A program made the translations under genes and the position numbers. Positions 149-55,900 of a DNA stretch of 64,000 bases are shown one piece after another. The stretch's first letter is position 1. Every line of letters starts with the position of its first letter. The stretch spans positions 3,551 through 67,550 of the forward strand of contig JBGCET010000035.1 of NCBI GenBank assembly GCA_045106555.1, read 5' to 3'. The notes below the pieces were generated by a model. That model was not told the origin of the DNA, made no database searches, and saw only the letters and a list, made by a program, of their open reading frames with translations. The DNA comes from Lysobacterales bacterium (GTDB lineage: Bacteria; Pseudomonadota; Gammaproteobacteria; Xanthomonadales; SZUA-38).

Positions 149-2281
149 ATGAAAAATCTGTTTGTTTCCCTTTTATTCACGCTGAACTGCTTGCATCTTG
201 CAGCGGCTAACACACCGATACCAGGTGTTGCCGGTTCAGCATTCTCTGTTGCTGACAGCAGCGACAAAGGGGGCTTGGCCATCTCCCTGATACATGAGGT
301 TCAGGGGGCAATGAGCAGCAGTCCTTTGAACGGTGAAGGCGTGCTGGTAGAAGCCATTGTTGTGGGCGATTTCCAAACCGGCGATGCCGATACTGGGAGA
401 GAACTTGGCGGCTTCTACGTGCAAGAAGAAGACAGTGATGCTGATGCAGACACGACGACGTCAGAAGGGGTGTTTGTCTTTGAGGGTGGCGCCTTCATTA
501 CCGATGTGCAGGTTGGCGATTTAGTTAGGGTGGCCGGTACGATGACAGAGGTCGACGGAGAAACCCGCATTGGGTCGGTAACCAGTATTTCAATTGTGAG
601 CCAAGGCAACGGGTTGCCGACCGCGTCGGAGATTGTGCTTATTCCCGATGGGCCCACAACGCTCAGTCAGAGCGGACGGCTGCAGCCGGACCTGGAAGCG
701 TTTGAAGGCATGCGGGTGACATTTACCGATACGTTGACTATTTCTGAGATGTTTCAACTTGTGCGGTTTAACGAAATTAAGCTGAGCCAGGGTGGCCGTC
801 TCGAGCAATTTACTCAGAGCAATCTGCCCGATGTTTCGGGGTTTGCTGACCACCTGCAAACCGTTGGATCACGCTCCATCGTCTACGACGACGGCCTGAA
901 CGTGCAAAACGCGCTGATCGGCAACCTGGACGGCTTTGGCCCAACGTTCAGCACTGATACCGATCTGCGCATTGGCGACACGGTAGCGGGTCTTGCCGGG
1001 ATACTCAGTTACCAATGGGCCGGCAATGCCGCCAGCCCGGCTACCTGGCGAGTGCGTGCCTCACGGGACGGCGAAAACACCTTCGACAAGGCCAATGAAC
1101 GACTGACAACGCCCGAGCCTGTCGGCGGCACCCTGAAAGTGGCGGGTTTCAACGTGTTTAACTACTTCAGCACGCTGCGGGACGCGGGAACCACCGCGAT
1201 AGGGGCCAATCCGCGAGGGGCTAGCAACGCCGCCGAATTTGCCCGGCAAACGCAAAAGCTGGTGACCGCACTGACCGCTATCGATGCCGATGTTGTCGGG
1301 CTGGTCGAGCTTGAAAATGATTTCCTGGTTGGTGCTAACGGCAATGCCCTGGACAACCTGGTTGCTGAACTCAACGCTGTGCTTGGCGCCGGCACCTATG
1401 CCTGGGTTAATCCTGGAGAGCAGTTTATTGGCGTTGATGCCATTGCCAATGGTTTGATCTACAAACCCGCGCTGGTGAGTGTTGTTGCGGTGGATTCCCT
1501 GGTCTTTCAGACCGCGTCGGGCAACGCAACCTTAGCCACTGCCCAGGTATTGAACCCGTTTGTTGGCGCAGCCGACCAAGTGTTTGACAATCAGCGTAAC
1601 CGTCCAACGTTGGCCGCCACGTTTGAAGATAGGGCAGGCCAACAACTCACCGTTGCGGTCAGTCACTTCAAAGCGAAGAGCGACAGCAACCTGCAGGACC
1701 TGGCGATGGAGGCCCAAACGGTGCTGGACGCTGGAACAACAGGATTCAGTCAAACCGACATCGATAATCTTCTTGCTGATCCAAACTACGATCAGGGTGA
1801 CGGCCAAGGCTTTTGGAACGCTGCACGCGCGGACGCCTCCTCCGAGCTGGCTCAGTGGCTATCTGACACCACCGGCGGCGGCTACGCCGCAGGCGCCATT
1901 GCCGACGCAGACTTTTTGATCGTGGGTGATCTCAACGCCTACGCTCAGGAAGACCCTGTGGCGGCGTTAGGCAGCCAGGGCTTTGTAGATCTGGCGGCAA
2001 CACGCACAACGAACCCAAGAAGTTTCATGTTCAGTGGTCAAAGTGGAACCTTGGACTATGCGCTGGCCAGCCCTTCATTAAGCAGTCAGGTCACCGGCGT
2101 GACGCTTTGGAATATCAACGCAGATGAACCTAACGCGCTCGACTACAACACGGACTTTAGCCGCGATGTTTCGATTTTTGACGGTGCTTTGCCTTTCCGT
2201 GCCTCTGATCACGATCCTATTATTGTGGGGCTGCGCCTGACCGACTTGCCACCGGAGATTTTCGCTGACGGCTTTGAGTAA
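149..2281 (+). CDS. Exported ExeM/NucH/Xds-family extracellular nuclease (endonuclease/exonuclease/phosphatase fold)
   Basis: ORF 119..2281 opens on TTG. The in-frame ATG at 149 lies 6 nt after AGGT and gives a signal peptide (MKNLFVSLLFTLNCLHLAAA). EEP-fold motifs are LKVAGFNVFNYF, VVGLVELEN, LIVGDLNAY and a terminal SDHDP. The N-terminal OB-like region resembles ExeM/Xds. The protein ends ...EIFADGFE-stop. Confidence 0.8.
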   Translation: MKNLFVSLLFTLNCLHLAAANTPIPGVAGSAFSVADSSDKGGLAISLIHEVQGAMSSSPLNGEGVLVEAIVVGDFQTGDADTGRELGGFYVQEEDSDADADTTTSEGVFVFEGGAFITDVQVGDLVRVAGTMTEVDGETRIGSVTSISIVSQGNGLPTASEIVLIPDGPTTLSQSGRLQPDLEAFEGMRVTFTDTLTISEMFQLVRFNEIKLSQGGRLEQFTQSNLPDVSGFADHLQTVGSRSIVYDDGLNVQNALIGNLDGFGPTFSTDTDLRIGDTVAGLAGILSYQWAGNAASPATWRVRASRDGENTFDKANERLTTPEPVGGTLKVAGFNVFNYFSTLRDAGTTAIGANPRGASNAAEFARQTQKLVTALTAIDADVVGLVELENDFLVGANGNALDNLVAELNAVLGAGTYAWVNPGEQFIGVDAIANGLIYKPALVSVVAVDSLVFQTASGNATLATAQVLNPFVGAADQVFDNQRNRPTLAATFEDRAGQQLTVAVSHFKAKSDSNLQDLAMEAQTVLDAGTTGFSQTDIDNLLADPNYDQGDGQGFWNAARADASSELAQWLSDTTGGGYAAGAIADADFLIVGDLNAYAQEDPVAALGSQGFVDLAATRTTNPRSFMFSGQSGTLDYALASPSLSSQVTGVTLWNINADEPNALDYNTDFSRDVSIFDGALPFRASDHDPIIVGLRLTDLPPEIFADGFE

Positions 2282-4386: not shown

Positions 4387-6378
4387 TCAGCATTCGTTGG
4401 GCAGGGTAGCGGCAAGCCGCACCACTGCGGAGACCTTCTCGCCATCCTCGCCGTTCAGCGTAAACGTTCCTGTATCGCAGCTATCCAGGGTTATTTGCAA
4501 TGTCCCCCAACGTTGCAGGGAGTCGGGTGACGCTGGGGTTTGAAATCGGCCTTCGCCGCCAATCATCATCTCCAGCGCCAGCGGTTCGTTCCCAGGCACC
4601 GGGCCGGACACCGAATTACTCACTAACCATAACCGCGAACCGTCAGCGCGATAGCCAAAGTAAAACACCGTGATGGTGCCGCCGGCTTCGATAACATTAA
4701 ACCCTTCACCTTCCTTCGCTGGATCGAACCACAGGCCGGATGCGGAAAATCCTTCAGCCTGGATTGTCCAGGTCTCACTGAACAGCCGTTGCTGGGCGTC
4801 CAGCGCACCGGACAGAAACGGTGACCGATCAATCGCCGTAAGCGTTATTTCGTATTGGCCAGGCAAGTCCGCTTGAAAGTTGAACGTTGCCGTTGTGGCC
4901 AGCGACGGGTTTTCGAGATTGGGGGTGGCCGTTGCTGAGGTCATCAGCTGTCCATCAACTGCCCACTGTGTTTCAACCCCATGGGCCGGCATCAAAAGTT
5001 TTGCCGAAAGCGCCAGGGATTGGCCGGCATTAAGCGTGATCGTTTCAGCGGGTGATGGAATCTGAGACGCGGGTTCAATGACCGAGATACCGTTGTCGGG
5101 CAATCCCCAGCCGCCGCCGTACAGAGTGCTGACATAAGTTTGGGCGCAGACAGGGCAGAACTCTCTTCCCAATGACCGCATGGCGCATTGCTGAATTGGC
5201 CGATACATTCCTTGGCTTTGATAGCGGGCGCCTTCGAACAGCCCAACAACCTCCCGAGTGCCAAGATTTGTTGGCGTAGGAATGGCAACAGACTCATCCA
5301 CCCAACCACGCCACTTCAAATGGGTGCGTCGCGTTTCGTCCGTGGCATTGGCCTCACAGGGCGGCAGCGACAGATCCCGATCACTGCACGTTGGAGCGTT
5401 AGCAAAATCCTCATACTCATCGGTCAGCAGGGTGAACGAATGTCCCCATTCGTGGATCAATAGTTCGGGCGATAACGGATGGGTGGAAAAGGTGGTGAAA
5501 AATCCACCGGCGCCGCCGTAGGTGTCGTCATTCACAATCACGGCAACCCGGTCCCAAGGAAACGGCGCTTCGGCCGCCACCCGCGCGACAGCGTTTCGAT
5601 CCACGGTTAGCAGTCGATCGAAACCTGCAGTGCAGAAGGTGCCGTTAAAGGCGGTATCCACCTCCAGCGGCGCTTTGGGATCGGTGTCCTCGCATCCGGG
5701 GTGATCAGCGCCGGATTGGTTAGATCGTACAAAGTAGGGGTGAACGTCAAGAAACTCCCGATAGGAGCGATAAGGCTCGATGGCGAAAAAACCCTCGAGG
5801 GCTCGATCCACATCCTGATGGAACTTGTCTTCCTCGGCAGCGGTATAACCCTCGCCCATTAACAGCAGATTGACCCGGTTGAGCGATCGCTCGTCCTCAA
5901 CGGATCCGCCTTTCACCGTGGCTCCGCGCTCCCTCGCGATGCCAATCAGGTCATCCACTGACCATTGATGAGTCAAGGTGGCCGATTCACCCCAGTGTTG
6001 AACCACCACCGAAGGTGCTGATGCGGGAACTCGGAGTACCACCGTTATGGTGGGTTCGGTGCGGTGATGGGTAGCTGTTGACACCCTGGCCACCACCAGC
6101 CCGTTTGCGTCCACCGCCAGCAGGGTGTTGTGCCATCGCTGACTTGATACTTTGGCAGGAGTCCGGTGAGACATATCAATTTGTTGATAATAGGTCACCG
6201 CTGGCGCCGAATCGGTAACCGAGCCGGGGTTCAACTCCAGCACCAAGTAATGGGTCGCAGCGCCATGGGCACTGCTAACGCAAAGCAGCGCTAACAATCC
6301 AGCGACGATTGCCACGCGCCATTGAAAATCGGTCTTAATTTGTTGGACGGCCGAAAAGTGTTGGGTAGCGATGTTCAC
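4387..6378 (-). CDS. Exported M64-family (IgA-peptidase-like) zinc metallopeptidase with extra C-terminal module
   Basis: 663 aa with a GTG start and a signal-like N-terminus (VAIVAGLLALLCVSSAHG). M64 hallmarks are VNLLLMGEGYT and TYGGAGGFF, with zinc site HEWGHSF followed by DEYE. The last 116 aa form a separate module (see 4390..4737). Confidence 0.8.
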   Translation of the reverse strand: MNIATQHFSAVQQIKTDFQWRVAIVAGLLALLCVSSAHGAATHYLVLELNPGSVTDSAPAVTYYQQIDMSHRTPAKVSSQRWHNTLLAVDANGLVVARVSTATHHRTEPTITVVLRVPASAPSVVVQHWGESATLTHQWSVDDLIGIARERGATVKGGSVEDERSLNRVNLLLMGEGYTAAEEDKFHQDVDRALEGFFAIEPYRSYREFLDVHPYFVRSNQSGADHPGCEDTDPKAPLEVDTAFNGTFCTAGFDRLLTVDRNAVARVAAEAPFPWDRVAVIVNDDTYGGAGGFFTTFSTHPLSPELLIHEWGHSFTLLTDEYEDFANAPTCSDRDLSLPPCEANATDETRRTHLKWRGWVDESVAIPTPTNLGTREVVGLFEGARYQSQGMYRPIQQCAMRSLGREFCPVCAQTYVSTLYGGGWGLPDNGISVIEPASQIPSPAETITLNAGQSLALSAKLLMPAHGVETQWAVDGQLMTSATATPNLENPSLATTATFNFQADLPGQYEITLTAIDRSPFLSGALDAQQRLFSETWTIQAEGFSASGLWFDPAKEGEGFNVIEAGGTITVFYFGYRADGSRLWLVSNSVSGPVPGNEPLALEMMIGGEGRFQTPASPDSLQRWGTLQITLDSCDTGTFTLNGEDGEKVSAVVRLAATLPNEC
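4390..4737 (-). other. C-terminal module copy 1 (GLWFDP...WGT..C..G..TF...C) shared by three hydrolases
   Basis: GLWFDPAKEGEGFNV...YFGY...GGEGRF...WGTLQITLDSCDTGTFTL...RLAATLPNEC-stop. It aligns by eye with 59755..60123 and 61347..61748. Confidence 0.6.
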
Positions 6379-6473: not shown

Positions 6474-8810
6474 ATGGCTGACGTGTTTGTCTCATACTCC
6501 AGAAAAGACCGGGATCGAGTGCGGCCGCTGGTGGACGCGCTGGAGCACGCAGGTCTCAGTGTTTGGTGGGACCGGGATCTGATCTCTGGTGAAGATTTTG
6601 GGCGCGCTATTGAGCGAGAAATATCCGCTGCAACGGCGGTGGTGGTGGTCTGGTCGAAACATGGCGCTGAATCTCAATGGGTTCGCGATGAGGCGAGTCT
6701 TGCCCAGCGTCAGAACAAACTCTTTCCCGTCAGTATCGATACCACGGTTGCGCCGCTGGGGTTTCAGCAGCTTCAGTCGTTGGACCTTTCTGCATGGAAT
6801 GGCGATCCGGAATTCCCAGAGCTGCAGTTGTTGGCCCAGCGTGTGGGTGGCAAACAGGATGAAAAACCAGCAAAACCAGTTGTGCCCAACAAGGAAACCC
6901 GGGGGGCGCTTTTTAACGGTGTGCTGGCGGTTTTACTGTTGGGTTGTGTCGCCCTGGCATGGTTTGGCCTTGGCGAAAAGTCGGGCATTGAACGTTCCGA
7001 CCCAAAGCAACACGATGCCATTCGACTGGCTGTGTTGCCGTTCTCCAACCTGTCTAACGATGCCGAAGACGAGCTGTTCGTTGACGGATTGTCTGAGGAG
7101 CTCTTAAACCGGTTTTCCGCAGTGGTTGGGTTACAGGTGCCGGGCCGCACCTCAGCGTTTCGCTTCAAGGGCAAAACCGGAGATCCCCAATCCATCGGTC
7201 GATCGTTGAAGGTTGAGTATCTGCTGGAGGGTGCAGTACGGCGCTCTGGGGACGTGCTTCGGGTGACCTGCGCGCTGATTGAACCTGTCACCGGCTTTAC
7301 CCGCTGGTCGCAAACCTACGATCGAGAAGTGTCTGATATTTTTCAGGTTCAGGATGACATTGCGCGGGCCGTTGTCAATCAGTTGCTAGGCGCTATTGAA
7401 TACGAGGCGACGTATCTTAAGTCGGAACAGGTAGGGGTGTCAGCAGACGCCCATATCCAGTATCTGGAGGGACGGGCGCTGTGGAGTCGTCGCAGCTCAG
7501 CGGCTACTGAGAAGTTTCGCAAGGCAATAGCGATTGATCCTGAACATGCGCTCGCCCAAGCCTATCTGGCCATTGCAAGTGCCTATTTCATTCGCTCTCC
7601 TGACCCAGAAATCAGCCAGTCTCTGAATGCAGCTGTGGCGCTCCGGCCGCAATCTCCCGACGTATTGTTTGCCCAGGGTTGGGTGGCCGAAATGTTGGGA
7701 AAATCCAGCCAATCCAGCTGGGAACAGTTTTATCAAATGGCGTTGCGGGCCAATCCGCGAAGTGTGGAGGCGCTTTATGCGGTCTATCGGCTTAGTAAAG
7801 ACCAAACCTTGCTGGAAACTGCGCTAGGCATTGATCCGGCCCATGTGCCGTCCATTTCTTCTTTGGCTGCTGAACGTTATCAGCTCAACGATATGGCGAG
7901 CGGCGGTGCGGTATTGGATCAAACGTACGCAGCGTTCCGCGATTTCCCCATCGGGGACCTTGCAGCTATCGCCAAAGACTACGGTGATATCTCAAGAATG
8001 GCGCGCCTGGTCTTTGCCGATTGGTCTCGACGCGAGAATTCTGACCCGTTTTCCCTGGCCCTGGGGCCGACGTTGCTGGCCGATTTTGGCCGCTTTGACG
8101 ATGCGCTGTTTTTCGCCTCCCAGAGCCCTGGACCATTTGGTCAACTAAATGCCGCTGCGCTGCGGGAAGACTACGACCAGTATATTGCTCTGTCCCGCGA
8201 CCCGCAGGTGCCCGGGGCGTTCCGGTCTTTTGCTCATGCGTTGGGTCTGACAGCAAACGGCAATCCAGCCGACGCGCTGGAGGTCTTGCAAAGGCGATGG
8301 CCAGAAGTCTTTACAGGCCAAAACTCTGGCGTGGATTCTGGGCGCTTTGGCTCCAGCGGAGATTGGGTCGCGATGCTCGGCGCAGTGGCTATGAGCCGGA
8401 TAGGAAAGGAAAGGGAATCGGCACAGCTTTTCCGCAAGATCCTTGCGTCAATTGAGAACAATATGGGGTCGGAGTTAATGTTCGACAGCTGGAGCGCTGC
8501 AACGCACCGGTCTATTGCCCACGCCAATCTGGGAAACCGGGATCAGGCGATGGCGTTTTTGCAACACGCTTATGATCGCGGTTTTCGGTTTCCTCGGTCG
8601 TATGGGTGTTCGTCATGTATCTGGCCCGCCATTGATGACCCCATTGGGTTTCTGGCACCGCTGGTGGGTGACCCGGAGTTTCAGGCGTTTATGAAGCGCC
8701 TGAATCTGGAAAATGAACGGCTGATGGCAACCATTAACGAGCGCTACGCAACGTTTGATACGTTCCAGGCGGCGAGAGACGCGGCAAGTGAGCGTGCAAC
8801 CGGCGAATAG
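6474..8810 (+). CDS. TIR domain - single TM helix - periplasmic sensor-like module + TPR repeats
   Basis: 778 aa. Residues 1 to about 125 follow the bacterial TIR pattern (VFVSYSRKD..GLSVWWDRD..SQWVRDE, with Glu73 at 6690..6692). One TM helix (ALFNGVLAVLLLGCVALAWFGLG). Next comes the IRLAVLPFSNLS..DGLSEELL module typical of TM one-component sensors, then about 450 aa of TPR-like helical repeats. Confidence 0.75.
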   Translation: MADVFVSYSRKDRDRVRPLVDALEHAGLSVWWDRDLISGEDFGRAIEREISAATAVVVVWSKHGAESQWVRDEASLAQRQNKLFPVSIDTTVAPLGFQQLQSLDLSAWNGDPEFPELQLLAQRVGGKQDEKPAKPVVPNKETRGALFNGVLAVLLLGCVALAWFGLGEKSGIERSDPKQHDAIRLAVLPFSNLSNDAEDELFVDGLSEELLNRFSAVVGLQVPGRTSAFRFKGKTGDPQSIGRSLKVEYLLEGAVRRSGDVLRVTCALIEPVTGFTRWSQTYDREVSDIFQVQDDIARAVVNQLLGAIEYEATYLKSEQVGVSADAHIQYLEGRALWSRRSSAATEKFRKAIAIDPEHALAQAYLAIASAYFIRSPDPEISQSLNAAVALRPQSPDVLFAQGWVAEMLGKSSQSSWEQFYQMALRANPRSVEALYAVYRLSKDQTLLETALGIDPAHVPSISSLAAERYQLNDMASGGAVLDQTYAAFRDFPIGDLAAIAKDYGDISRMARLVFADWSRRENSDPFSLALGPTLLADFGRFDDALFFASQSPGPFGQLNAAALREDYDQYIALSRDPQVPGAFRSFAHALGLTANGNPADALEVLQRRWPEVFTGQNSGVDSGRFGSSGDWVAMLGAVAMSRIGKERESAQLFRKILASIENNMGSELMFDSWSAATHRSIAHANLGNRDQAMAFLQHAYDRGFRFPRSYGCSSCIWPAIDDPIGFLAPLVGDPEFQAFMKRLNLENERLMATINERYATFDTFQAARDAASERATGE

Positions 8811-20769: not shown

Positions 20770-20866
20770 GCCTGGGTTTTACTTCATCCGTTCATAGCGG
20801 CCATCCCCTAGGGGGTTGCAGGATGTTCCGCTATCGAGGGACGCCTGCCACTGGTATTCTTTGGAT

Positions 20867-22777
20867 ATGACTAATCCACAATCTTTAAGCCGCTTAACTC
20901 GGCCTGATTTTTTCTTTCGTTCTTTGCTGATTCTGGGGATGCTCTGTCCCATCTGGGTGACCGCTCAACCCACAGTTAAACCGGTTCTGCACGGAAAACA
21001 CTGGGTGGCCATAACCGGCAAGCCATTGGCAGCCACTGCGGGAAGTTTGACCTTTGCCCGCGGCGGCAACGCGGTGGATGCCGCCTGCGCAATGCTGGCG
21101 GCTACCTCTACCATGTGGGATACGCTGGGGTGGGGCGGCGAAACCCAGGCATTGATCTATAACCCCAATACCAAAAAGGTTGTCGGTATCAATGCGCTGG
21201 GAGTAGCGCCGACAGGCGCGACCCCAGAATTTTTTAAAGAAAAGGGCATGGTGTACCCGCCGGAATATGGACCGCTGGCGGCGGTAACTCCCGGAACTCC
21301 CGGAGGCTTGATGGTGATGCTGGCCGAATACGGCAGCCTGAGCCTGGCTGAGGTTCTTGCGCCGGCGATGGAGATGGCCAAGGGATATCCCATTGAGGAA
21401 TCTCAGGCCGATAACATGGAGCAACGCAAAGACATCATCATGCAGTGGTCGTACTCCCGCGATGTGTTTTTGCCCCACCTGGCCGCAGACAATTCTCAAG
21501 AGCGGGCGGCCCCCAAAGCCGGAGAGATTTTTCGCCAGCCCAATTTGCTAAAAACTCTCAACAAACTGGTTGAAACCGAGCGACGGGCGCTGGACCGGGG
21601 TGAAAGTCGCAAAGACGCCATTATGGCTGCCTACCAACGGTTTTATCGGGGCGATATTGCGCGGGAGATTATCCGCGCTTCTACCGAATATGAGGGCATC
21701 ATGACCCTGGCAGATCTGGCCAATTGGGAGGTGAAAATCGAAGAGCCGGTGAGCACCAACTATAAGGGCGTGGAGGTGTACAAGCTGACCCACTGGGTGC
21801 AGGGCCCGGTGCTGCTTCAGGCGTTGAATATTCTTGAGGACATAGACCTTAAGAACATGGGTTACAACACCGGTCGCTACATTCACCTGTTGTATCAGGT
21901 AATGAATCTGGCGTTTGCTGATCGGGATTTTTACTACGGCGATCCTTACACACCACCGGAGGAACCGATCCGCGGACTATTGTCCAAGGAGTACGCCAAG
22001 CACCGTCGCGATCAGATCAGCTGGGAAAAAAATGATCCCGAAGTTAAGCCTGGCGACCCCTACCCGTTCCAGGGTGAGGTCAATCCGTTTATGCATTTGC
22101 TGAACGACTGGAACAATATTCCTCCCACGGCTCAGGCCGACGGCGTGGACGGATTCCAGCAGGCTAATCTGACGAAACGTGATGAAGAATTCCTGGCCGG
22201 TACGACGTCAATTCAAGCGGCCGACGCCCAGGGCTGGGTGGTTTCCATTACCCCCAGCGGCGGCTGGATTCCCGCGTTTATCGCCGGCGATACCGGTATC
22301 GGTCTTAGTCAGCGGATGCAGAGCTTTGTCTTGGACGAAGCCATCAACCCCTACAATGTGGTTCAACCCGGCCAGCGACCCCGCTCTACGTTAACCCCAA
22401 GTATTGCCCTTAAAGATGGTAAGCCGCTGATGGCGTTTTCCGTTCAGGGCGGCGACACCCAAGATCAAAACCTGCTGCAGTTTTTCCTGAACATGGTGGA
22501 GTTCGACATGAATGTTCAGCAGGCGGTGGAAGCACACATGATTACCAGCTACCAGATGCAAAGTTCTTTTGGCGCCCATGAAGCCCAACCTGGCCGCTTA
22601 CAGGTGACGCGCAAAGTGCCTGACTGGACCCGCGCCGAGCTAAAGCGTCGAGGGTATTTTGTTGAAGTGATTGACCGTACCTATAGCCCCGTCACGGCGA
22701 TCTATTTCGACCATGAAAACGGCAGCATGTGGGGCGGCGCCAGCGACTACGGTGAAGACTACGGTATTGCCTGGTAG
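20867..22777 (+). CDS. Gamma-glutamyltransferase-family (Ntn hydrolase) protein
   Basis: ATG at 20867. Signal/TM segment LLILGMLCPIWVTAQP. N-terminal GGT pattern GNAVDAACAMLAA. Autoprocessing site LAGTTSIQAADAQGWVVSITPSGG. Confidence 0.8.
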   Translation: MTNPQSLSRLTRPDFFFRSLLILGMLCPIWVTAQPTVKPVLHGKHWVAITGKPLAATAGSLTFARGGNAVDAACAMLAATSTMWDTLGWGGETQALIYNPNTKKVVGINALGVAPTGATPEFFKEKGMVYPPEYGPLAAVTPGTPGGLMVMLAEYGSLSLAEVLAPAMEMAKGYPIEESQADNMEQRKDIIMQWSYSRDVFLPHLAADNSQERAAPKAGEIFRQPNLLKTLNKLVETERRALDRGESRKDAIMAAYQRFYRGDIAREIIRASTEYEGIMTLADLANWEVKIEEPVSTNYKGVEVYKLTHWVQGPVLLQALNILEDIDLKNMGYNTGRYIHLLYQVMNLAFADRDFYYGDPYTPPEEPIRGLLSKEYAKHRRDQISWEKNDPEVKPGDPYPFQGEVNPFMHLLNDWNNIPPTAQADGVDGFQQANLTKRDEEFLAGTTSIQAADAQGWVVSITPSGGWIPAFIAGDTGIGLSQRMQSFVLDEAINPYNVVQPGQRPRSTLTPSIALKDGKPLMAFSVQGGDTQDQNLLQFFLNMVEFDMNVQQAVEAHMITSYQMQSSFGAHEAQPGRLQVTRKVPDWTRAELKRRGYFVEVIDRTYSPVTAIYFDHENGSMWGGASDYGEDYGIAW

Positions 22778-22778
22778 C

Positions 22779-24140
22779 TCATTCAAAACCGTTGCTAAAT
22801 ACCGTGTCGGGTCGAGTAAGAATCAGGTCTTGAGTAATGCTGGCGTTTGGCGCCACTTGAGCAATGGTGGCTTCGCCGCCTTGGAATTCATCGGTTAGAA
22901 CCCGCAGTGACAAATTCTCCGCCCCCGATTGTCCCGTCGCCGTCTGTAGCACCACAATGGAATAGCTGCCGTCCGCCGGGTCGCTCACGGTGGCAATGTT
23001 GTCACTGGACAGAATGAACAGGCCACCCACCGGCGCGTTGCTGCCGGCCTCGAGAACCTGCCCGGAAATAGTGGCCAACGGTGCACAAACAAACTGGGCA
23101 TCAATGGGTTGAAAGGTATAGCTGTAGGTCGCCGTTTGCGGGGCGGTTGGACAATGGCGAACGCGAAACAGAAACTCTGCCGGTAGCTGCAGCGTGGTTC
23201 CGGCCGGAGCCGTCGTGCCACAGGCGCCCAGCACATCCGTTGCGCTAACGCCCGGGTCAGCAAGTCTAGCGGATGGGAACGTCTCAAAGATTGGCTGAAA
23301 CCCCGGTGTATCGGAGGTGACAGTGATGAAGAACGGGAAATTGTCGGAACTGCAGCCGGTGTTTTCCGCCAGTTCCCAGTAAATCCAATCTTCGTCCCCC
23401 GGGGTTAGCGTGTGTGACTGGATTTGGCCCTCAAGGGCGTTGGGGAAGCGCGATGCGAGTTGGGGTTGGTCATCAATTTCGAACCCATCGTCAACGCCGT
23501 TGGTGGCGTTCTCATCCACCGCAAAGACAAAATTGGCAATGGCAATGTCGTCACCGCCGGTGTCTTCATCAAACCGCAGGCCGAAAAAATCCACCTCACT
23601 GACGATGCCCACAAACGTATTGGTGCTGGCGCCCAGGTCGGGCATGGGTAATATTTCGATCACGGCGCCACCGGAGTCCAGCAGGGCGATGGCCTCACCC
23701 GCGGTGCCATTGGTATCGCGCAGGGTGAATCCAAAAATTCGCAGCGGCTCACCACTGGTTACCGAGATCACCCAGTCGTCGTTTTCAAAATTATCCAGAT
23801 CACCGATAGATAATGCGTTATCGAAATTAGGCAAGTTTCCGCCGCCTTCATCGTCGTCGAAGGTTATGCCGCCGCCTTCAATGGCGGTGAGGGTAAAGCT
23901 GCGGGATAAGCCGGTATTGGCTTGATCAAAGGTCAATGTGCTGCCGCCAACACCGGAATTTGGGTTCAGGGCTATGGGTATTTCCGACGCCAGTGCCACG
24001 CCTGCGGCGTCCGTTATCAGCGTTTCCACCCGCGTACCCGCATTTTGGTCGAAACGAAGTCGATCCACGAGTAGTTGGGCGCCAGATGCCTGCAGTGCGC
24101 TGAGCATCAGAGTAATGGTGACGAAGAGTTTTGCTGGCAT
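22779..24140 (-). CDS. Exported multidomain protein of unknown function (PPC-like and CarboxypepD_reg-like segments) ending in VFSNGFE
   Basis: ATG at 24140 gives the signal MPAKLFVTITLMLSALQASGA; the maximal ORF starts on GTG at 24170. Acidic Gly/Asp-rich N-terminal half. PPC-like segment LTPGDEDWIYWEL. CarboxypepD_reg-like segment ISGQVLEAGSNAPVGGLFILS..DGSYSIVVL. Internal DGFE at 23478..23489. Confidence 0.65.
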   Translation of the reverse strand: MPAKLFVTITLMLSALQASGAQLLVDRLRFDQNAGTRVETLITDAAGVALASEIPIALNPNSGVGGSTLTFDQANTGLSRSFTLTAIEGGGITFDDDEGGGNLPNFDNALSIGDLDNFENDDWVISVTSGEPLRIFGFTLRDTNGTAGEAIALLDSGGAVIEILPMPDLGASTNTFVGIVSEVDFFGLRFDEDTGGDDIAIANFVFAVDENATNGVDDGFEIDDQPQLASRFPNALEGQIQSHTLTPGDEDWIYWELAENTGCSSDNFPFFITVTSDTPGFQPIFETFPSARLADPGVSATDVLGACGTTAPAGTTLQLPAEFLFRVRHCPTAPQTATYSYTFQPIDAQFVCAPLATISGQVLEAGSNAPVGGLFILSSDNIATVSDPADGSYSIVVLQTATGQSGAENLSLRVLTDEFQGGEATIAQVAPNASITQDLILTRPDTVFSNGFE

Positions 24141-52961: not shown

Positions 52962-55900
52962 CTACTCAAATCCATCGCTGAACACAAATTCTCCTTCCGG
53001 TACCAACTGCTGGTCTGCCACATTGGTATCCTGGCCTGCATCAACGTCAAGTCCGGGTACCGTCATGGGCGCGTAATCCATTCGGGTAAATTCCAGTGCG
53101 TAGTTGCCTGGCTCCAAACCTGACAACACATAGTTGCCGCTGTCATCGGTTAACGCAGGTTTTTGCAAGGGATCGTCCTTAACCGAAACCAGGATATTCG
53201 TCAGGCCTTCATTTCCGCTCAGGGTGATTCGCCCGGTGATGCGGCCCAGAGTGCCCGCAGGCCACTGGGTAATGTCATCCACATACCGAATCGATACGTT
53301 GCCACTGGGGTCACGGTACTGAACGGTCACGGTGCGGATGGTGGGTACCGATACCCCATCGAAATTCACCGTCCATTGAGACACGTAAGGCATCCAGGGG
53401 CCAAAGCGATCTTGATCCAGTCGAGCGCGGAATTCGGCGGTTGCTGGGTCTTCGTTATAGAGGGCGTTTTCCACCACCGCTGAATTTCCATCGGTACGCA
53501 GGTGATAGTCGGCGATCGAAACCGAGCCTAGTGGCGCGTTGGCGTCAGCGAGCGCAAAGCCTGAGAAAATTCGACCAGGAGCCGACAGCGAGCCGTCGGC
53601 CATTTCACCCTGAAACTGGTAGAAATACTCCTGGCCAATGTCTACCCGTCGATCCACATATTCCTGGGTTTGATGGGCGCCGGAATCAAAAGTGGTCAGA
53701 GGCAGTAACGAATCTTCGGTAAGGCCCCGCTTGAGTGTCAGATTGTCGAAGCGGCCGTAGGCAGGTAGTTTTACGGTCACTGCGTTATCGGTCAGTAGCG
53801 CTTGCTCCTCGTGCTCTGTACGTTGGGTGACCACATGGCCGCCCAACGGCATCGGCAGGGCGTCGTCGGTGGGGTCCAGCGGGTTACGTCCACCGCGCAC
53901 CTCCGAGCCGTCCATTTCGCCACCGCCATCGGTGTCGGTCAGGCAAGGACGGGTACCGCGGGTGAACTCAAAAAAGTTGCTTAACATGTCGTCGTCGCCG
54001 TCGACTGTGGCGTCATTTACATCGCCGTCCAGGCAGCTATAGCGGTCTTCATAAGAATCGGGCAGCTGATCGCCATCACGATCCGGCGGCGTGGTTTGTT
54101 GAACGACGTGGGTCACTTCATGCGCGATCAATTTTCGGCCGTCTGCCAGTTCGGCATCCAGCTGCACTTGGTAGGTGCCCCTCTGCCCGCTGCTTCCGTC
54201 GTCGGGTAAGCCGGTTGCGCTGCCGCTGTTGGATAGGAAGGAAAAGTTGATGGAGCGGGACCCAGAGCCTTCTTCCACGCGTAAAGACTCGGTTTGGCCC
54301 GTTTCTTCGCTGTCCACCGGCACGTTAATCACCTGCGTGTCGCCGTTGGGCATTTCGATGGTGGCGATTAATGAGCGTAGCGGTTGTAACCCCTGGCTGT
54401 CGGCGACAGAAAATCCGACACCAATCGGTTGGCCAACAACAAAACCCAGCACAACGTCATCGTCTACTTCCGGCAGAAAAAACCCGGTTTGCGCGTTCAG
54501 CCCGTTGGCATCAGGGATCGACACAGCGACCTCAGCCTGCTGGTTATTGGCGGCGGTGGCGGCTGTTACCTCCAAACGCCAAGTGCCTTTCACCAGGGCG
54601 CCGATAAAACTCACGGCATTACCCTCATCGCTGCGCGCCACATCGAGGTCACGGGCCAGCACTTCGCTGCCATCGGGTCGGAACAACCGCACTGACTGTA
54701 TGGAGGGCGGGGTAAACAGCGAACGAGCCGAACGCACGCCAATCACGGCGGGTGCGCTAGTATTCTCTCTGATAGGAATATCCAAACTGATGACATTGCC
54801 GACATCCAAGGCCAGTTGCTCACGCTGAATTTGCGTGCGCCCTTCAATTACGTCAGCAATCTGACCCAGGGCGGCGTGCAGATCCAGTACCTCGGTAAAC
54901 AGCGGCTGAACGTCGGCATAACGAAACTCGCCGCCGGTGGCGCGGGCAATTTCCGCCAGCAAGGCCTGGTCGGCCAACGGGCCCAGGGCGACGGTGTGGA
55001 CGATCATCCCTGAGGCCACGATGGTGTCGCGGATGTCCCGCCACAGGTCCTCTTCATTTTCCGGGCCGTCAACAACCAACACCGTGTGCTGAGCCCTTAG
55101 CGGCTCACCATCCGATAAAAACATTTGGTAGGCAGTGCGCAGTCCATCGCCGATAGCGGAGGTTCTGCCGGCGTCAGCGGACAGTCCGTTCAGCGCGACG
55201 CGAATGCGGTTGCGGTGGGTGGCGTCGGCAGCGGCTAACGGCGCCAGCGTGCGTCCATCATCATTCGGTTCAGTACCATCACCGCTAAAATCTACCAGGC
55301 CCGCGGCGAGGACGCTGTCCAGCTGTTGCAACAGGTGCAGGCCGGCGTCAGTAACGGCAGCGAGTTTTGAACCGTCTGGCGGGAATGCCATGGTGGAAGA
55401 GGTATCAATGGCCAAAATAACCTCGGTCGGCGGCGTATCGATGTAGGCCACCGCGTTGTCGATGGTTTGAACGGCTTCGCCGGCGCGGATTTCCAGCGGA
55501 TACGCACCGTCCGCCGCCTGAGGCGGCACCAACAGTTGAAGCAGATAACCATCGCCGTCAGGCACCGCCTGCAAAACCTGAGCGGGCTGATCGCCAATGC
55601 TGGCGTCGAACTGCAGCGCCGATAATCCGCTGACGGTTTTTCTGCCGTCAATCCCGGTGCTGGTGGGAACCACCGACACGGCGATGGTGCCTGGGTTGCT
55701 CGCGCTGCCGCCATAGTGTGGACGACTCTCGCCTGCCAGTGGGAAATCTACGTCGAACGTGGATTGGGGTGATTGACACGATAGGGTTACGTTGCCGATC
55801 CAGAACCCCGCCACCGGGGCGATCACCAGGTAGAGTTCGTCAAATCGATTGCTGCGTTGAAAGGTGGTGAGGGTCCAGTCCACGTCGTACTTTTTGTAAA

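What the first reader, a model, noticed from the sequence alone, without database searches (positions are those of the whole stretch)
2237..2281. Three unrelated exported proteins end in the same extreme C-terminal tail, F-[AS]-[DN]-G-F-E-COOH
Seen directly in three proteins:
- The nuclease (149..2281) ends LTDLPPEIFADGFE-stop (2258..2278).
- The 453-aa protein (22779..24140, minus strand) ends LTRPDTVFSNGFE-stop (22782..22802).
- The 1379-aa protein (52962..57101, minus strand) ends LVPEGEFVFSDGFE-stop (52965..52985).

All three have N-terminal signal peptides, and their catalytic or other domains are unrelated. No TM helix or basic cluster follows the motif. It is therefore not of the PEP-CTERM, GlyGly-CTERM, LPXTG or MYXO-CTERM type, and it is not the terminal-Phe signature of beta-barrel OMPs.

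From established knowledge, the homologous nucleases Xds (Vibrio cholerae) and ExeM (Shewanella) carry a GlyGly-CTERM rhombosortase signal at this same position. The extreme C-terminus of this nuclease family is thus a known slot for sorting signals.

My inference is that the tail is a short sorting, anchoring or processing tag recognised by unidentified machinery. One caveat: DGFE also occurs once internally at a domain junction (23478..23489). The motif could therefore be a conserved domain-boundary strand that merely happens to be terminal here.
Basis: partly seen in the sequence, partly recalled or inferred. Interest (0 to 1): 0.7.

Follow-up and report, generated by a model that had tools for sequence, protein, structure and literature searches.

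The report
Undescribed short C-terminal tag, exported proteins
Three unrelated exported proteins in this Lysobacterales genome end in the same seven residues ([VI]-F-x-[DN]-G-F-E), which prove to be a widespread, selected and so far undescribed C-terminal tag sitting where related proteins carry known sorting signals; its function is still only inferred.

Summary

- **Distribution.** A scan of 185,579 species genomes found V-F-x-D-G-F-E-stop at the end of long ORFs in all 49 hits from Lysobacterales-labelled genomes. In other taxa 47 of 53 hits fell in ORFs under 100 aa, that is, noise. Position -5 is free. The carriers mostly have signal peptides.
- **Selection.** Conservation is at protein level. 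Codons and 3' flanks differ between copies.
- **Placement.** AlphaFold leaves the tail disordered, beyond the end of the nuclease fold. In both the nuclease family and the 1379-aa family, homologues carry other signals in exactly this slot. These are JDVT-CTERM, T9SS, RTX, PEP-CTERM-like, IPTL-like or dockerin-like modules. Elsewhere the tail follows a choice-of-anchor Q domain.
- **Relatives.** The tail is the shortest form of a series. The next form is a 19-residue tail, FxDGFESGDTSAWSxTVP-COOH, common in metagenomes. The longest is the first strand of ConA-like jelly-roll domains.

No Pfam or NCBIfam model matched either tail in the proteins scanned, and literal sequence searches of the paper library returned nothing. 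The best reading is a sorting or anchoring tag without a transmembrane segment that acts after Sec export. The machinery was not found, so function remains inferred.

The parts
149..2281 (+). Gene for a 710-aa ExeM/NucH family extracellular endonuclease with a signal peptide. It carries tail copy 1.
   Evidence: NCBIfam NF033681 scores 520 bits against a cut-off of 300, over residues 67-697. Pfam finds Exo_endo_phos. The protein is 100% identical to P0001, named 'MAG: Lysobacterales bacterium'.
2240..2257 (+). Variable linker T-D-L-P-P-E between the last strand of the nuclease fold and the tail.
   Evidence: The last modelled strand is residues 691-695. The linker differs among orthologues P0001-P0006 (TDLPPE, SDLPPE, VTAPGE, TSSLVE, GTLPDE, SEVQEE) while the tail is kept.
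2258..2281 (+). Tail copy 1: I-F-A-D-G-F-E followed by TAA.
   Evidence: Residues 702-710 have pLDDT below 50 and no secondary structure.
22779..24140 (-). Gene for a 453-aa exported orphan protein. It carries tail copy 2.
   Evidence: Translation. There are no Pfam or NCBIfam hits. It has no real homologue in a database of 5.8 billion proteins: it finds only itself and one marginal hit at E 6.5e-6.
22779..22802 (-). Tail copy 2: V-F-S-N-G-F-E followed by TGA.
52962..57101 (-). Gene for a 1379-aa exported multidomain protein (HExxH-type putative metalloprotease region, VWA, C-terminal CarboxypepD_reg). It carries tail copy 3.
   Evidence: CarboxypepD_reg covers residues 1288-1364, leaving 15 residues for linker and tail. 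A family of proteins of about 1400 aa was found.
52962..52985 (-). Tail copy 3: V-F-S-D-G-F-E followed by TAG.
   Evidence: Sixteen of 30 family members at 28-47% identity end in the tail or a close variant at the same position.
23478..23489 (-). Internal D-G-F-E inside the 453-aa protein (context G-V-D-D-G-F-E-I-D-D). This is not a tail copy.
   Evidence: It lacks the hydrophobic-Phe pair at -7/-6 that 61 and 68 of 69 tails carry, although those positions were fixed by the search pattern. It sits at an apparent domain start, consistent with DGFE-type sequences opening beta-sandwich domains.

Best explanation
**What it is.** [VIL]-F-x-[DN]-G-F-E-COOH is a lineage-specific peptide tag. A short linker enriched in Pro, Asp and Glu precedes it, often with an acidic residue at -9. 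The tag is appended to many otherwise unrelated Sec-exported proteins in a subset of Lysobacterales/Xanthomonadales. Examples are Chiayiivirga, Dokdonella, Aquimonas, Ahniella/Ahniellaceae, Rudaea, Tahibacter and uncultured lineages including this MAG.

**How it most likely works.** It acts after Sec export and signal-peptide cleavage, in the periplasm or at the cell surface. There it would serve as a flexible, exposed recognition peptide for one shared partner. That partner would either pass the folded cargo across the outer membrane or hold it at the cell surface. This is the same job that PEP-CTERM, GlyGly-CTERM, JDVT-CTERM, T9SS domains or dockerins do for homologues in other lineages. Because the tag has no membrane-spanning segment, an intramembrane or membrane-embedded sorting enzyme cannot process it.

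**Shown here.**
- The tag exists and is almost exclusively C-terminal.
- It is restricted to certain lineages.
- Selection acts at the protein level.
- It is associated with signal peptides.
- It is disordered or exposed in the structure model.
- It occupies the 'anchor slot' in three protein families.
- It is related to a 19-residue tail and to the first strand of ConA-like domains.

**Inferred.**
- That it is a sorting or anchoring signal.
- That recognition uses the two Phe side chains, the acidic residues and often the free carboxylate around a D-G/N-G turn.
- That binding may work by beta-strand addition to a partner, possibly a jelly-roll domain lacking its first strand.
For: **Real and non-random.**

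**Lineage restriction.** The genome-contig scan for V-F-x-D-G-F-E-(TAA/TGA) gave 49 hits in Lysobacterales-labelled genomes. All 49 end ORFs of at least 100 aa or ORFs cut by the locus edge. In other taxa, 47 of 53 hits lie in ORFs under 100 aa.

**C-terminal only.** Fifteen non-seeded occurrences were found in the same loci: 11 are terminal, 3 are followed by one residue and 1 is internal. A complete scan of viral contigs, used as a control, gave 103 VFADGFE hits, none directly terminal.

**Unseeded positions are also conserved.** Position -5 is Ala or Ser in 39 of 69 tails, -9 is Asp or Glu in 37 of 69, and -10 is Pro or Gly in 25 of 69.

**Protein-level selection.** Synonymous codons, stop codons and 3' flanks differ among copies within one genome. 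The tail is kept in nuclease orthologues at 62-76% identity while the linker varies. It is also kept in the 1379-aa family at 28-47% identity.

**Exported cargo.** Signal-peptide-like N-termini are listed. They are enriched on tail ORFs: 25 of 32 against 43 of 105, Fisher p=2.5e-4.

**Not part of the preceding fold.**
- The nuclease model has mean pLDDT 85.5, its last strand is residues 691-695, and the tail scores below 50.
- Several nuclease homologues end right after that strand.
- CarboxypepD_reg ends 15 residues before the C-terminus.

**Anchor slot.**
- ExeM/NucH homologues carry JDVT-CTERM, a T9SS type A domain or RTX at their C-terminus. The family's reference model is the GlyGly-CTERM form, NF033680.
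- Members of the 1379-aa family carry PEP-CTERM-type, IPTL-like, TM-plus-basic or dockerin-like C-termini where others carry the tail.
- In L003 and L081 the tail follows directly after an NF041518 choice-of-anchor Q domain.

**Lineage-uniform forms.** Contigs carry either long or short forms, not both, as expected if the tag co-evolves with a partner.
Against: - No candidate receptor, protease or translocon was found. The only recurrent neighbours are an ECF-type sigma factor and a Ser/Thr kinase with TPR repeats, which look regulatory. Nothing suggestive lies in the window.
- There is no experimental evidence on localisation or processing.
- The core sequence is also the first strand of ConA-like jelly-roll domains, and in metagenomes it can sit just after a signal peptide. 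It might therefore have a structural or biophysical role of its own.
- In related lineages 1-5 or 12 residues follow the Glu. A free carboxylate on the Glu therefore cannot be a universal requirement.
- The signal-peptide enrichment rests on a crude home-made predictor and crude ORF calling.
Counts per genome and true absences are unknown.
Confidence: 0.5

Rival explanations
1. The tail is a passive terminal cap with no dedicated partner. It would be a small self-contained turn or hairpin (F-x-D-G-F-E) that protects the C-terminus of extracellular proteins from carboxypeptidases or tail-specific proteases, or improves solubility and prevents edge-strand aggregation of beta-rich cargo.
For: - The tail has no TM segment and no cleavage-type motif.
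- It is disordered in the model.
- The cargo is mostly beta-rich extracellular enzymes and repeat proteins.
- The same sequence can sit at a mature N-terminus in metagenomic proteins.
- No machinery was found.
Against: - A generic cap would not be expected to be lineage-restricted.
- It would not be expected to be uniform in form within a contig.
- It would not be expected to occupy exactly the position where homologues carry bona fide sorting signals or dockerins.
- Seven nearly invariant residues are more than exopeptidase protection should need.
Confidence: 0.15
2. The tail is a processing or quality-control signal, not a destination signal. A periplasmic PDZ-type or tail-specific protease would recognise it. 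Cleavage would remove it as a short pro-peptide, activate the enzyme, or destroy cargo that fails to leave the periplasm.
For: - It is an exposed C-terminal peptide on exported proteins.
- Known periplasmic PDZ proteases read C-terminal peptides (established knowledge of DegS and Prc, not tested here).
- Several cargo proteins are hydrolases (nuclease, S8 and M-family peptidases) that could need latency control.
Against: - Many cargo proteins are non-enzymatic repeat or adhesin-like proteins: delta-60 repeats, FG-GAP, LRR, choice-of-anchor Q.
- The tail replaces anchors and dockerins rather than pro-domains in homologues.
- A C-terminal Glu is atypical for known Prc or DegS ligands (own knowledge).
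Confidence: 0.15
3. The tail is a vestige or domain-boundary strand. It would be the leftover first strand of a lost C-terminal ConA-like domain, or simply the last or first strand of a neighbouring domain, with no function of its own.
For: - The identical sequence opens ConA-like jelly-roll domains. PF14099 begins at the motif in L159, and NF033675 NTTRR-F1 matches start at the motif in L149, L207 and L131.
- A graded series of truncations exists.
Against: - Roughly 70 unrelated proteins stop at the same residue.
- The tail is conserved across 28-76% identity in two families while the adjacent linker drifts.
- No full-length or long forms were seen in about 0.4 Mb of sampled Lysobacterales sequence.
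- The tail lies outside the preceding folds.
- The 19-residue form has its own conserved ending, W-S-x-T-V-P-COOH, which differs from the domain form.
Confidence: 0.04
4. The tail is an artefact of a DNA-level repeat, such as a mobile element or terminator-associated repeat that overlaps 3' ends, or of gene calling.
For: None beyond the recurrence itself.
Against: - The copies differ at synonymous sites, use all three stop codons and have unrelated 3' flanks, both in the window and in other genomes.
- No hidden TM segment or continuation lies in any frame downstream.
- The tail occurs in both low-GC and high-GC genomes.
Confidence: 0.01

Closest known systems
Tripartite C-terminal sorting signals (PEP-CTERM/exosortase, GlyGly-CTERM/rhombosortase, JDVT-CTERM, IPTL-CTERM, MYXO-CTERM, LPXTG/sortase)
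   Same: - Extreme C-terminal position.
- Carried by many mutually unrelated exported proteins in one genome.
- Restricted to certain lineages.
- Occupies the same slot in the ExeM/NucH family, the 1379-aa family and after choice-of-anchor Q domains.
- PMC3237569 describes this 'many proteins, one signal' logic and lists extracellular nucleases among GlyGly-CTERM cargo.
   Different: - No transmembrane helix and no basic cluster; the protein stops at or just after the motif.
- The defining tripartite architecture is therefore absent.
T9SS C-terminal domains (type A TIGR04183, type B TIGR04131)
   Same: A C-terminal signal without a TM segment on Sec-exported, folded proteins, read in the periplasm for outer-membrane transit and surface attachment. 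One ExeM/NucH homologue (P0106) carries it in the same slot.
   Different: T9SS domains are folded beta-sandwiches of about 70-100 residues, mainly in Bacteroidota. Here the signal is 7 residues (19 in the long form), disordered in the model, and found in Gammaproteobacteria. There is no model hit.
Recognition of C-terminal strands through a free carboxylate (OMP beta-signal read by BamA, OMP YxF read by the DegS PDZ domain, pilin C-termini held by PapD-like chaperones)
   Same: A short C-terminal peptide with aromatic residues at alternating positions on periplasmic intermediates. Binding by strand addition is a plausible shared principle. This comparison rests on my own knowledge and was not tested.
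   Different: Those signals end in an aromatic residue and belong to beta-barrels or pilins. This tail ends in Glu, sits on soluble multidomain enzymes and adhesin-like proteins, and tolerates extra residues after the Glu in sister lineages.
First strand of ConA-like jelly-roll domains (Pfam PF14099 Polysacc_lyase; NCBIfam NF033675 NTTRR-F1)
   Same: Same sequence. 'V-F-A-D-G-F-E-S-G-x-L-S-x-W-T' opens these domains, and the model matches begin at the motif.
   Different: The remaining 150-200 residues of the domain are missing. The tail is a stand-alone peptide behind a flexible linker.
19-residue tail [FL]-x-D-G-F-E-S-G-D-T-S-A-W-S-x-T-V-P-COOH (no name or description found)
   Same: Identical core. 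It is strictly C-terminal: in nearly every fragment with the core motif, exactly 12 residues follow the F-E. It sits on signal-peptide proteins of unrelated families. It is uniform within a contig.
   Different: It has twelve extra conserved residues. It occurs in other lineages (two sources name Acidobacteriota). It was not seen in the Lysobacterales loci or the window.
Dockerin-type C-terminal modules
   Same: Small C-terminal modules without a TM segment that tether secreted proteins to a scaffold. Several members of the 1379-aa family carry a TSP3-plus-dockerin-like C-terminus in the same slot.
   Different: Dockerins are folded, calcium-binding modules of about 60-70 residues. The NF041540 hit was weak (16 bits against a cut-off of 29), and no cohesin-like partner is known here.

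Membership tests
PEP-CTERM / GlyGly-CTERM / JDVT-CTERM / IPTL-CTERM / LPXTG (tripartite sorting signals) | Hydrophobic transmembrane helix after the signature motif | tested here: not met
   All three proteins stop directly after G-F-E. No TM segment lies in any frame downstream of such tails.
PEP-CTERM / GlyGly-CTERM / JDVT-CTERM / IPTL-CTERM / LPXTG (tripartite sorting signals) | [quoted passage not shown] | tested here: not met
   The C-termini are acidic (D, E), with no K or R in the last 8 residues.
PEP-CTERM / GlyGly-CTERM / JDVT-CTERM / IPTL-CTERM / LPXTG (tripartite sorting signals) | Match to the curated sorting-domain model | tested here: not met
   NCBIfam at E<=0.1 gives no CTERM-type hit for any of the three proteins. 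The same search finds JDVT-CTERM and T9SS domains in nuclease homologues.
PEP-CTERM / GlyGly-CTERM / JDVT-CTERM / IPTL-CTERM / LPXTG (tripartite sorting signals) | Co-occurrence with a cognate sorting enzyme (exosortase, rhombosortase, sortase and so on) | not testable with these tools
   Whole genomes could not be retrieved. No such gene lies in the window or recurs next to tail genes.
T9SS C-terminal sorting domain | Folded C-terminal domain of about 70-100 residues matching TIGR04183 or TIGR04131 | tested here: not met
   Only 13-15 residues follow the last domain. There is no model hit.
Outer-membrane beta-barrel C-terminal beta-signal | Terminal aromatic residue (usually Phe) closing a beta-barrel | tested here: not met
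   The terminal residue is Glu. The cargo is soluble multidomain proteins: an EEP nuclease, and a VWA/CarboxypepD_reg protein.
ConA-like jelly-roll domain (PF14099 / NTTRR-F1 NF033675) | Complete domain of about 155-210 residues | tested here: not met
   Only the first strand's sequence is present. Full domains beginning with the same motif exist elsewhere: L149, L131, L159, L207.
ExeM/NucH family extracellular endonuclease (the carrier of tail copy 1) | Score above the curated cut-off of NF033681 | tested here: met
   520.2 bits against a cut-off of 300, over residues 67-697.
ExeM (GlyGly-CTERM form, NF033680) | Full-length match including the GlyGly-CTERM tail | tested here: not met
   207 bits against a cut-off of 1300. 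The match ends at model position 724 of 884.
Proposed class: [VIL]-F-x-[DN]-G-F-E C-terminal tails | Motif within 0-1 residues of the C-terminus of a signal-peptide protein, behind a non-conserved linker, in a genome with many such proteins | tested here: met
   Three copies in the window. There are about 70 further carriers in related genomes, several per 8-kb locus.

The most novel reading that the evidence does not exclude
The tail and its 19-residue relative FxDGFESGDTSAWSxTVP-COOH are a new class of bacterial protein-sorting signal. They are short linear C-terminal tags without a membrane anchor, carried by many Sec-exported proteins per genome. An as yet unknown periplasmic or outer-membrane receptor would read them to export or surface-dock folded cargo. 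Docking might work by beta-strand complementation of a jelly-roll domain that lacks its first strand. That would be a dedicated sorting route in Gram-negative bacteria unrelated to the exosortase, rhombosortase, sortase and T9SS systems.
Probability: 0.35. Interest if true: 0.9.

Novelty: new variant of a known kind. Interest (0 to 1): 0.74.

Why it matters
C-terminal sorting signals are the main handle for predicting which bacterial proteins end up on the cell surface or outside the cell, and for finding the machines that put them there. All curated signals of this kind are either tripartite (motif, membrane helix, basic cluster) or folded domains.

A 7-residue tag without a TM segment, and its 19-residue relative, would mark a large and currently invisible part of the secretome. 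In the sampled loci it is carried by a few per cent of ORFs, on nucleases, proteases and adhesin-like proteins. It is seen in a subset of Lysobacterales, and the long form in Acidobacteriota-type metagenomic lineages.

It would also make the question 'what reads it?' directly testable. Possible routes are phylogenetic profiling, peptide pull-downs and reporter fusions in a cultured carrier such as Chiayiivirga flava.

It could be practically useful as a minimal secretion or display tag. Even if the function proves different, the motif deserves a curated model, because current annotation misses it completely.

Tried and rejected
**Searches that found nothing or could not run**
I had to fix Val and TAA/TGA, so Ile-type tails and TAG stops were not seeded.
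- Literature searches for FADGFE, FSDGFE, DGFE motif, DGFESGD, SGDTSAWS and similar strings returned no papers. Searches on sorting signals returned only the known tripartite systems.
- The homologue search for the 453-aa protein found only itself and one marginal hit, so no orthologue test was possible.
When padded to 40 aa it returned only fragments of 70 aa or less and two organism names, so the taxonomic range of the long form stays poorly known.

**Searches for the machinery**
- Neighbour clustering in 58 tail-bearing loci found only ECF sigma plus Ser/Thr kinase pairs.
- Contig look-ups showed ordinary housekeeping neighbours.
- Pfam annotation of ten further window proteins showed nothing related to secretion.

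**Structure**
- A single-sequence AlphaFold model of the last 150 residues of the 1379-aa protein had pLDDT 42 and is uninformative.

**Ideas considered and dropped**
- Read-through or a hidden TM segment after the stop was rejected.
- A DNA repeat was rejected.
- The PEP-CTERM calls in the 1379-aa family rest on direct reading of [VIL]PEP plus helix plus Arg cluster. NCBIfam gave only sub-threshold hits to PEP-CTERM family models.
- Any link to the gamma-glutamyl transpeptidase gene that converges on tail gene 2 was considered and dropped as coincidence.
Full report
**1. Observation**

The three proteins end exactly as reported:
- the nuclease (149..2281, + strand) in ...LTDLPPEIFADGFE;
- the 453-aa protein (22779..24140, - strand) in ...LTRPDTVFSNGFE;
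- the 1379-aa protein (52962..57101, - strand) in ...LVPEGEFVFSDGFE.

In a six-frame translation of the whole window, F[AS][DN]GFE occurs three times and only at these stops. The corresponding DNA pattern gives 3 matches against 0.00 expected from shuffles. A composition-based estimate puts P(>=3) at about 3e-17. The copies use different codons and all three stop codons, and have unrelated 3' flanks, so the recurrence is at the protein level.

The carriers are unrelated to one another:
- an ExeM/NucH endonuclease (NF033681, 520 bits);
- an orphan with no family hit and no real homologue among 5.8 billion proteins;
- a putative metalloprotease (HExxH-type)/VWA/CarboxypepD_reg protein.

The source is a Lysobacterales MAG.

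**2. The tail generalises**

The result was sharply bimodal:
- All 49 hits in Lysobacterales-labelled genomes end long ORFs. These genomes include Chiayiivirga, Dokdonella, Aquimonas, Ahniella/Ahniellaceae, Rudaea, Tahibacter, Rhodanobacteraceae, Marinicella and many MAGs.
- 47 of 53 hits in other named taxa lie in ORFs under 100 aa, which is background.
- Fourteen of 17 hits in unresolved proteobacterial MAGs behave like the Lysobacterales ones.

Position -5 is free (A, S, G, R, K, D, N, Q, H, L, F, T, E). Positions the search did not fix are nevertheless biased: Ala or Ser at -5, Asp or Glu at -9, Pro or Gly at -10.

Within the retrieved loci, occurrences that the search pattern could not have seeded are again almost all terminal: 11 at the end, 3 followed by one residue, 1 internal. 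Several loci hold two to four tail-bearing genes (L081, L088, L037).

Most complete carriers start with a typical Sec signal peptide. With a crude predictor applied equally to all long ORFs of the same loci, 25 of 32 tail ORFs against 43 of 105 others look exported (p=2.5e-4). A complete scan of viral contigs served as a control: 103 VFADGFE heptapeptides, none directly at a stop.

**3. It is not part of the preceding domain, and it is under selection**

Nuclease orthologues at 62-76% identity keep [IV]-F-[AS]-D-[GDS]-F-E, in four of them followed by two residues. The six-residue linker before it differs in nearly every sequence. More distant homologues either stop right after the last catalytic strand (...DHDPVIVGLxL) or carry other C-terminal modules.

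AlphaFold2 with a 28-sequence alignment gives a confident nuclease model (mean pLDDT 85.5). Its last strand is residues 691-695, and residues 702-710 are coil with pLDDT below 50. In the 1379-aa protein the CarboxypepD_reg match ends 15 residues before the C-terminus.

A search of 1.84 billion cluster representatives found a family of proteins of about 1400 aa at 28-47% identity. Sixteen of the 30 members read end in the tail or a close variant at the same position: GFE, DDFE, DSFE, GFESP, GFEDP and others.

Within single genomes the copies differ at synonymous sites and in their flanks, and nothing is hidden downstream of the stop.

**4. It sits in the 'anchor slot'**

- **ExeM/NucH family.** Homologues carry JDVT-CTERM (P0052, P0057, P0077, P0097), a T9SS type A domain (P0106) or RTX repeats (P0007) at the C-terminus. 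The curated ExeM model is the GlyGly-CTERM form. Extracellular nucleases are listed among GlyGly-CTERM cargo in PMC3237569.
- **1379-aa family.** Members without the tail carry one of several alternatives after the last CarboxypepD_reg domain:
  - [VIL]PEP plus helix plus Arg cluster, which is PEP-CTERM by direct reading, with only sub-threshold model hits (P0240, P0248, P0254, P0261, P0269, P0242);
  - an IPTL-CTERM-like end (P0256, 17.9 bits against a cut-off of 20.5);
  - another helix-plus-basic end (P0246);
  - a TSP3 plus dockerin-like module (P0229, P0232, P0250, P0264).
- **Choice-of-anchor Q.** In L003 and L081 the tail follows immediately after an NF041518 choice-of-anchor Q domain. 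From my knowledge of NCBIfam naming, that name marks a domain found next to varied C-terminal anchors.

Other cargo includes S8 peptidases, delta-60 repeat proteins and PQQ-type propellers.

**5. Unexpected relatives**

An unbiased metagenome scan for V-F-A-D-G-F-E, with no stop required, showed that in long ORFs the heptapeptide occurs in four contexts:
- (a) directly terminal;
- (b) followed by 1-5 residues (GFES, GFEVQ, GFESP, GFEGD and others);
- (c) very often followed by twelve conserved residues, giving ...F-x-D-G-F-E-S-G-D-T-S-A-W-S-x-T-V-P-COOH;
- (d) as the first strand of a further domain (...VFADGFESGNLSKWT...), sometimes directly after a signal peptide.

The domain in (d) is a ConA-like jelly roll. 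PF14099 starts at the motif in L159. There are weak 3keto-disac_hyd and Pentaxin hits. NCBIfam NTTRR-F1 matches begin at the motif in L149, L207 and L131.

A profile of form (c) retrieved 97 protein fragments. Nearly all end in DGFESGDTSAWSxTVP, with the F-E 12 residues from the end in almost every fragment that has the core motif. Two are named Acidobacteriota. Carriers of form (c) also have signal peptides and belong to unrelated families: FG-GAP, LRR, reprolysin, beta-helix.

No Pfam or NCBIfam model matched either tail in the proteins scanned.

Contigs with several tail genes carry a single form. The Lysobacterales loci and the window show only the short form. The window's tail is thus the minimal member of a graded, lineage-specific series.

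**6. Mechanism**

*Shown:* a protein-level-selected, exposed, almost strictly C-terminal peptide on exported proteins. It is lineage-restricted and stands where homologues carry sorting or docking modules.

*Inferred:* it is read after Sec export by a shared partner that determines the cargo's extracellular or surface fate.

The D-G/N-G pair suggests a tight turn presenting two Phe side chains and acidic groups. The identity with a jelly-roll first strand suggests binding by strand addition. Both points are speculation.

No machinery was found. The only recurrent neighbours are ECF-type sigma factors and large Ser/Thr kinases with TPR repeats, in 6 of 58 loci, and these look regulatory. The window holds ordinary metabolic, transport and regulatory genes.

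The rivals (a passive protective cap, a protease or quality-control signal, a vestige, a DNA artefact) are weighed in their own section of this report. The last two are effectively excluded.

**7. Comparison and novelty**

The tail fails the defining features of:
- tripartite sorting signals (no helix, no basic cluster, no model hit);
- T9SS domains (no folded domain);
- the OMP beta-signal (terminal Glu, soluble cargo);
- ConA-like domains (only the first strand is present).

It works most like a sorting or docking tag but belongs to none of the known families. Literal sequence searches of 8 million papers and preprints, Pfam-A (2025) and NCBIfam release 20 (2026) turned up no description of it.

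I rate it a new variant of a known kind, namely C-terminal sorting or handling tags. There is a substantial chance that it marks a categorically new route.

**8. Limits**

The genome scan also required TAA or TGA, and the metagenome and viral scans fixed Ala at -5.
- ORF calling and signal-peptide prediction were home-made.
- Organism labels are those of the submitters.
- No complete genome could be scanned, so counts per genome and co-distribution with candidate machinery remain to be done.

Noticed in passing
L123, L172, L179, L186, L199, L204, L216, L217, L218, L222, L226 (metagenome loci); P0123-P0219: A 19-residue C-terminal tail, [FL]-x-D-G-F-E-S-G-D-T-S-A-W-S-x-T-V-P-COOH, ends many unrelated signal-peptide proteins in metagenomes. 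It is nearly identical between proteins, and two sources name Acidobacteriota. No Pfam or NCBIfam model matched it in the proteins scanned, and literal sequence searches of the paper library found nothing.
   Followed up: partly
P0238, P0266, P0267 (1379-aa family); P0098, P0017 (nuclease family; P0017 is named Chloroflexota): Another short C-terminal ending without a TM segment, [FY]-L-P-[ILFA]-[IV]-x-[KRQ]-COOH (for example ...DVFLPIIIRAN, ...QTFLPIIIK, ...SVYLPLVVK, ...AIFLPFIQ). It occupies the same slot in both families. It may be a parallel, lineage-specific short tag.
   Followed up: no
L015 1820-5234, L017 3-2432, L035 1-1623, L045 3422-6930, L083 6369-8000, L084 3534-6686: In 6 of 58 tail-bearing loci the tail gene lies next to a Ser/Thr kinase of about 1000 aa with a TM segment and TPR repeats. 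In 3 of these there is also an ECF-type sigma factor of about 188 aa. This looks like a regulatory pairing for secreted proteins.
   Followed up: partly
L033 and L040 (Halobium salinum, Halogeometricum pallidum): Proteins of about 360-390 aa in haloarchaea, without signal peptides, also end in ...F-[VR]-F-E-D-[GD]-F-E, including neighbouring paralogues. This appears to be a family-specific conserved C-terminus unrelated to the bacterial tag. The motif alone is therefore not diagnostic outside the carrier lineages.
   Followed up: no
L020 5058-6650: An FG-GAP/VCBS-like repeat protein ends ...A-L-F-K-N-G-L-E, a near-variant of the tail with Leu in place of the second Phe.
   Followed up: no
window 22779..24140 (-): The 453-aa carrier is an orphan, finding only itself and one marginal hit in 5.8 billion proteins. 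Its internal G-V-D-D-G-F-E is followed by a stretch with G-D-E-D-W-I-Y-W-E-L, which resembles the D-x-D-W-Y signature of pre-peptidase C-terminal-type domains. That resemblance is from my own recollection and was not tested.
   Followed up: no
window 20816..22777 (+) and 22779..24140 (-): A gamma-glutamyl transpeptidase gene and tail gene 2 converge with their stop codons one base apart. I judge this a coincidence.
   Followed up: no
window 6474..8810 (+): A 778-aa protein with an N-terminal TIR domain followed by TPR repeats (Pfam TIR_2, 3e-25). It might be a defence or signalling protein and is unrelated to the finding.
   Followed up: no
window 4387..6378 (-): An exported M64-family peptidase (Pfam Peptidase_M64, 4.9e-43) ends in ...LPNEC, with a C-terminal Cys and no tail. 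Not all secreted hydrolases in this genome carry the tag.
   Followed up: no
P0261: NCBIfam holds a model named 'FxDxF family PEP-CTERM protein' (NF038126). It gave only a weak match to the PEP-CTERM end of P0261. Whether its name-giving FxDxF motif is the same domain-initial strand as the tail core was not examined.
   Followed up: no
L006 6965-7999 (-): Only one ORF in about 0.4 Mb of tail-bearing loci has a classical helix-plus-basic C-terminus (...PVPVPVDARWALMLMVLAFLALAARQSRRSH), against 71 tail ORFs. The sample is biased by the way it was seeded.
   Followed up: no
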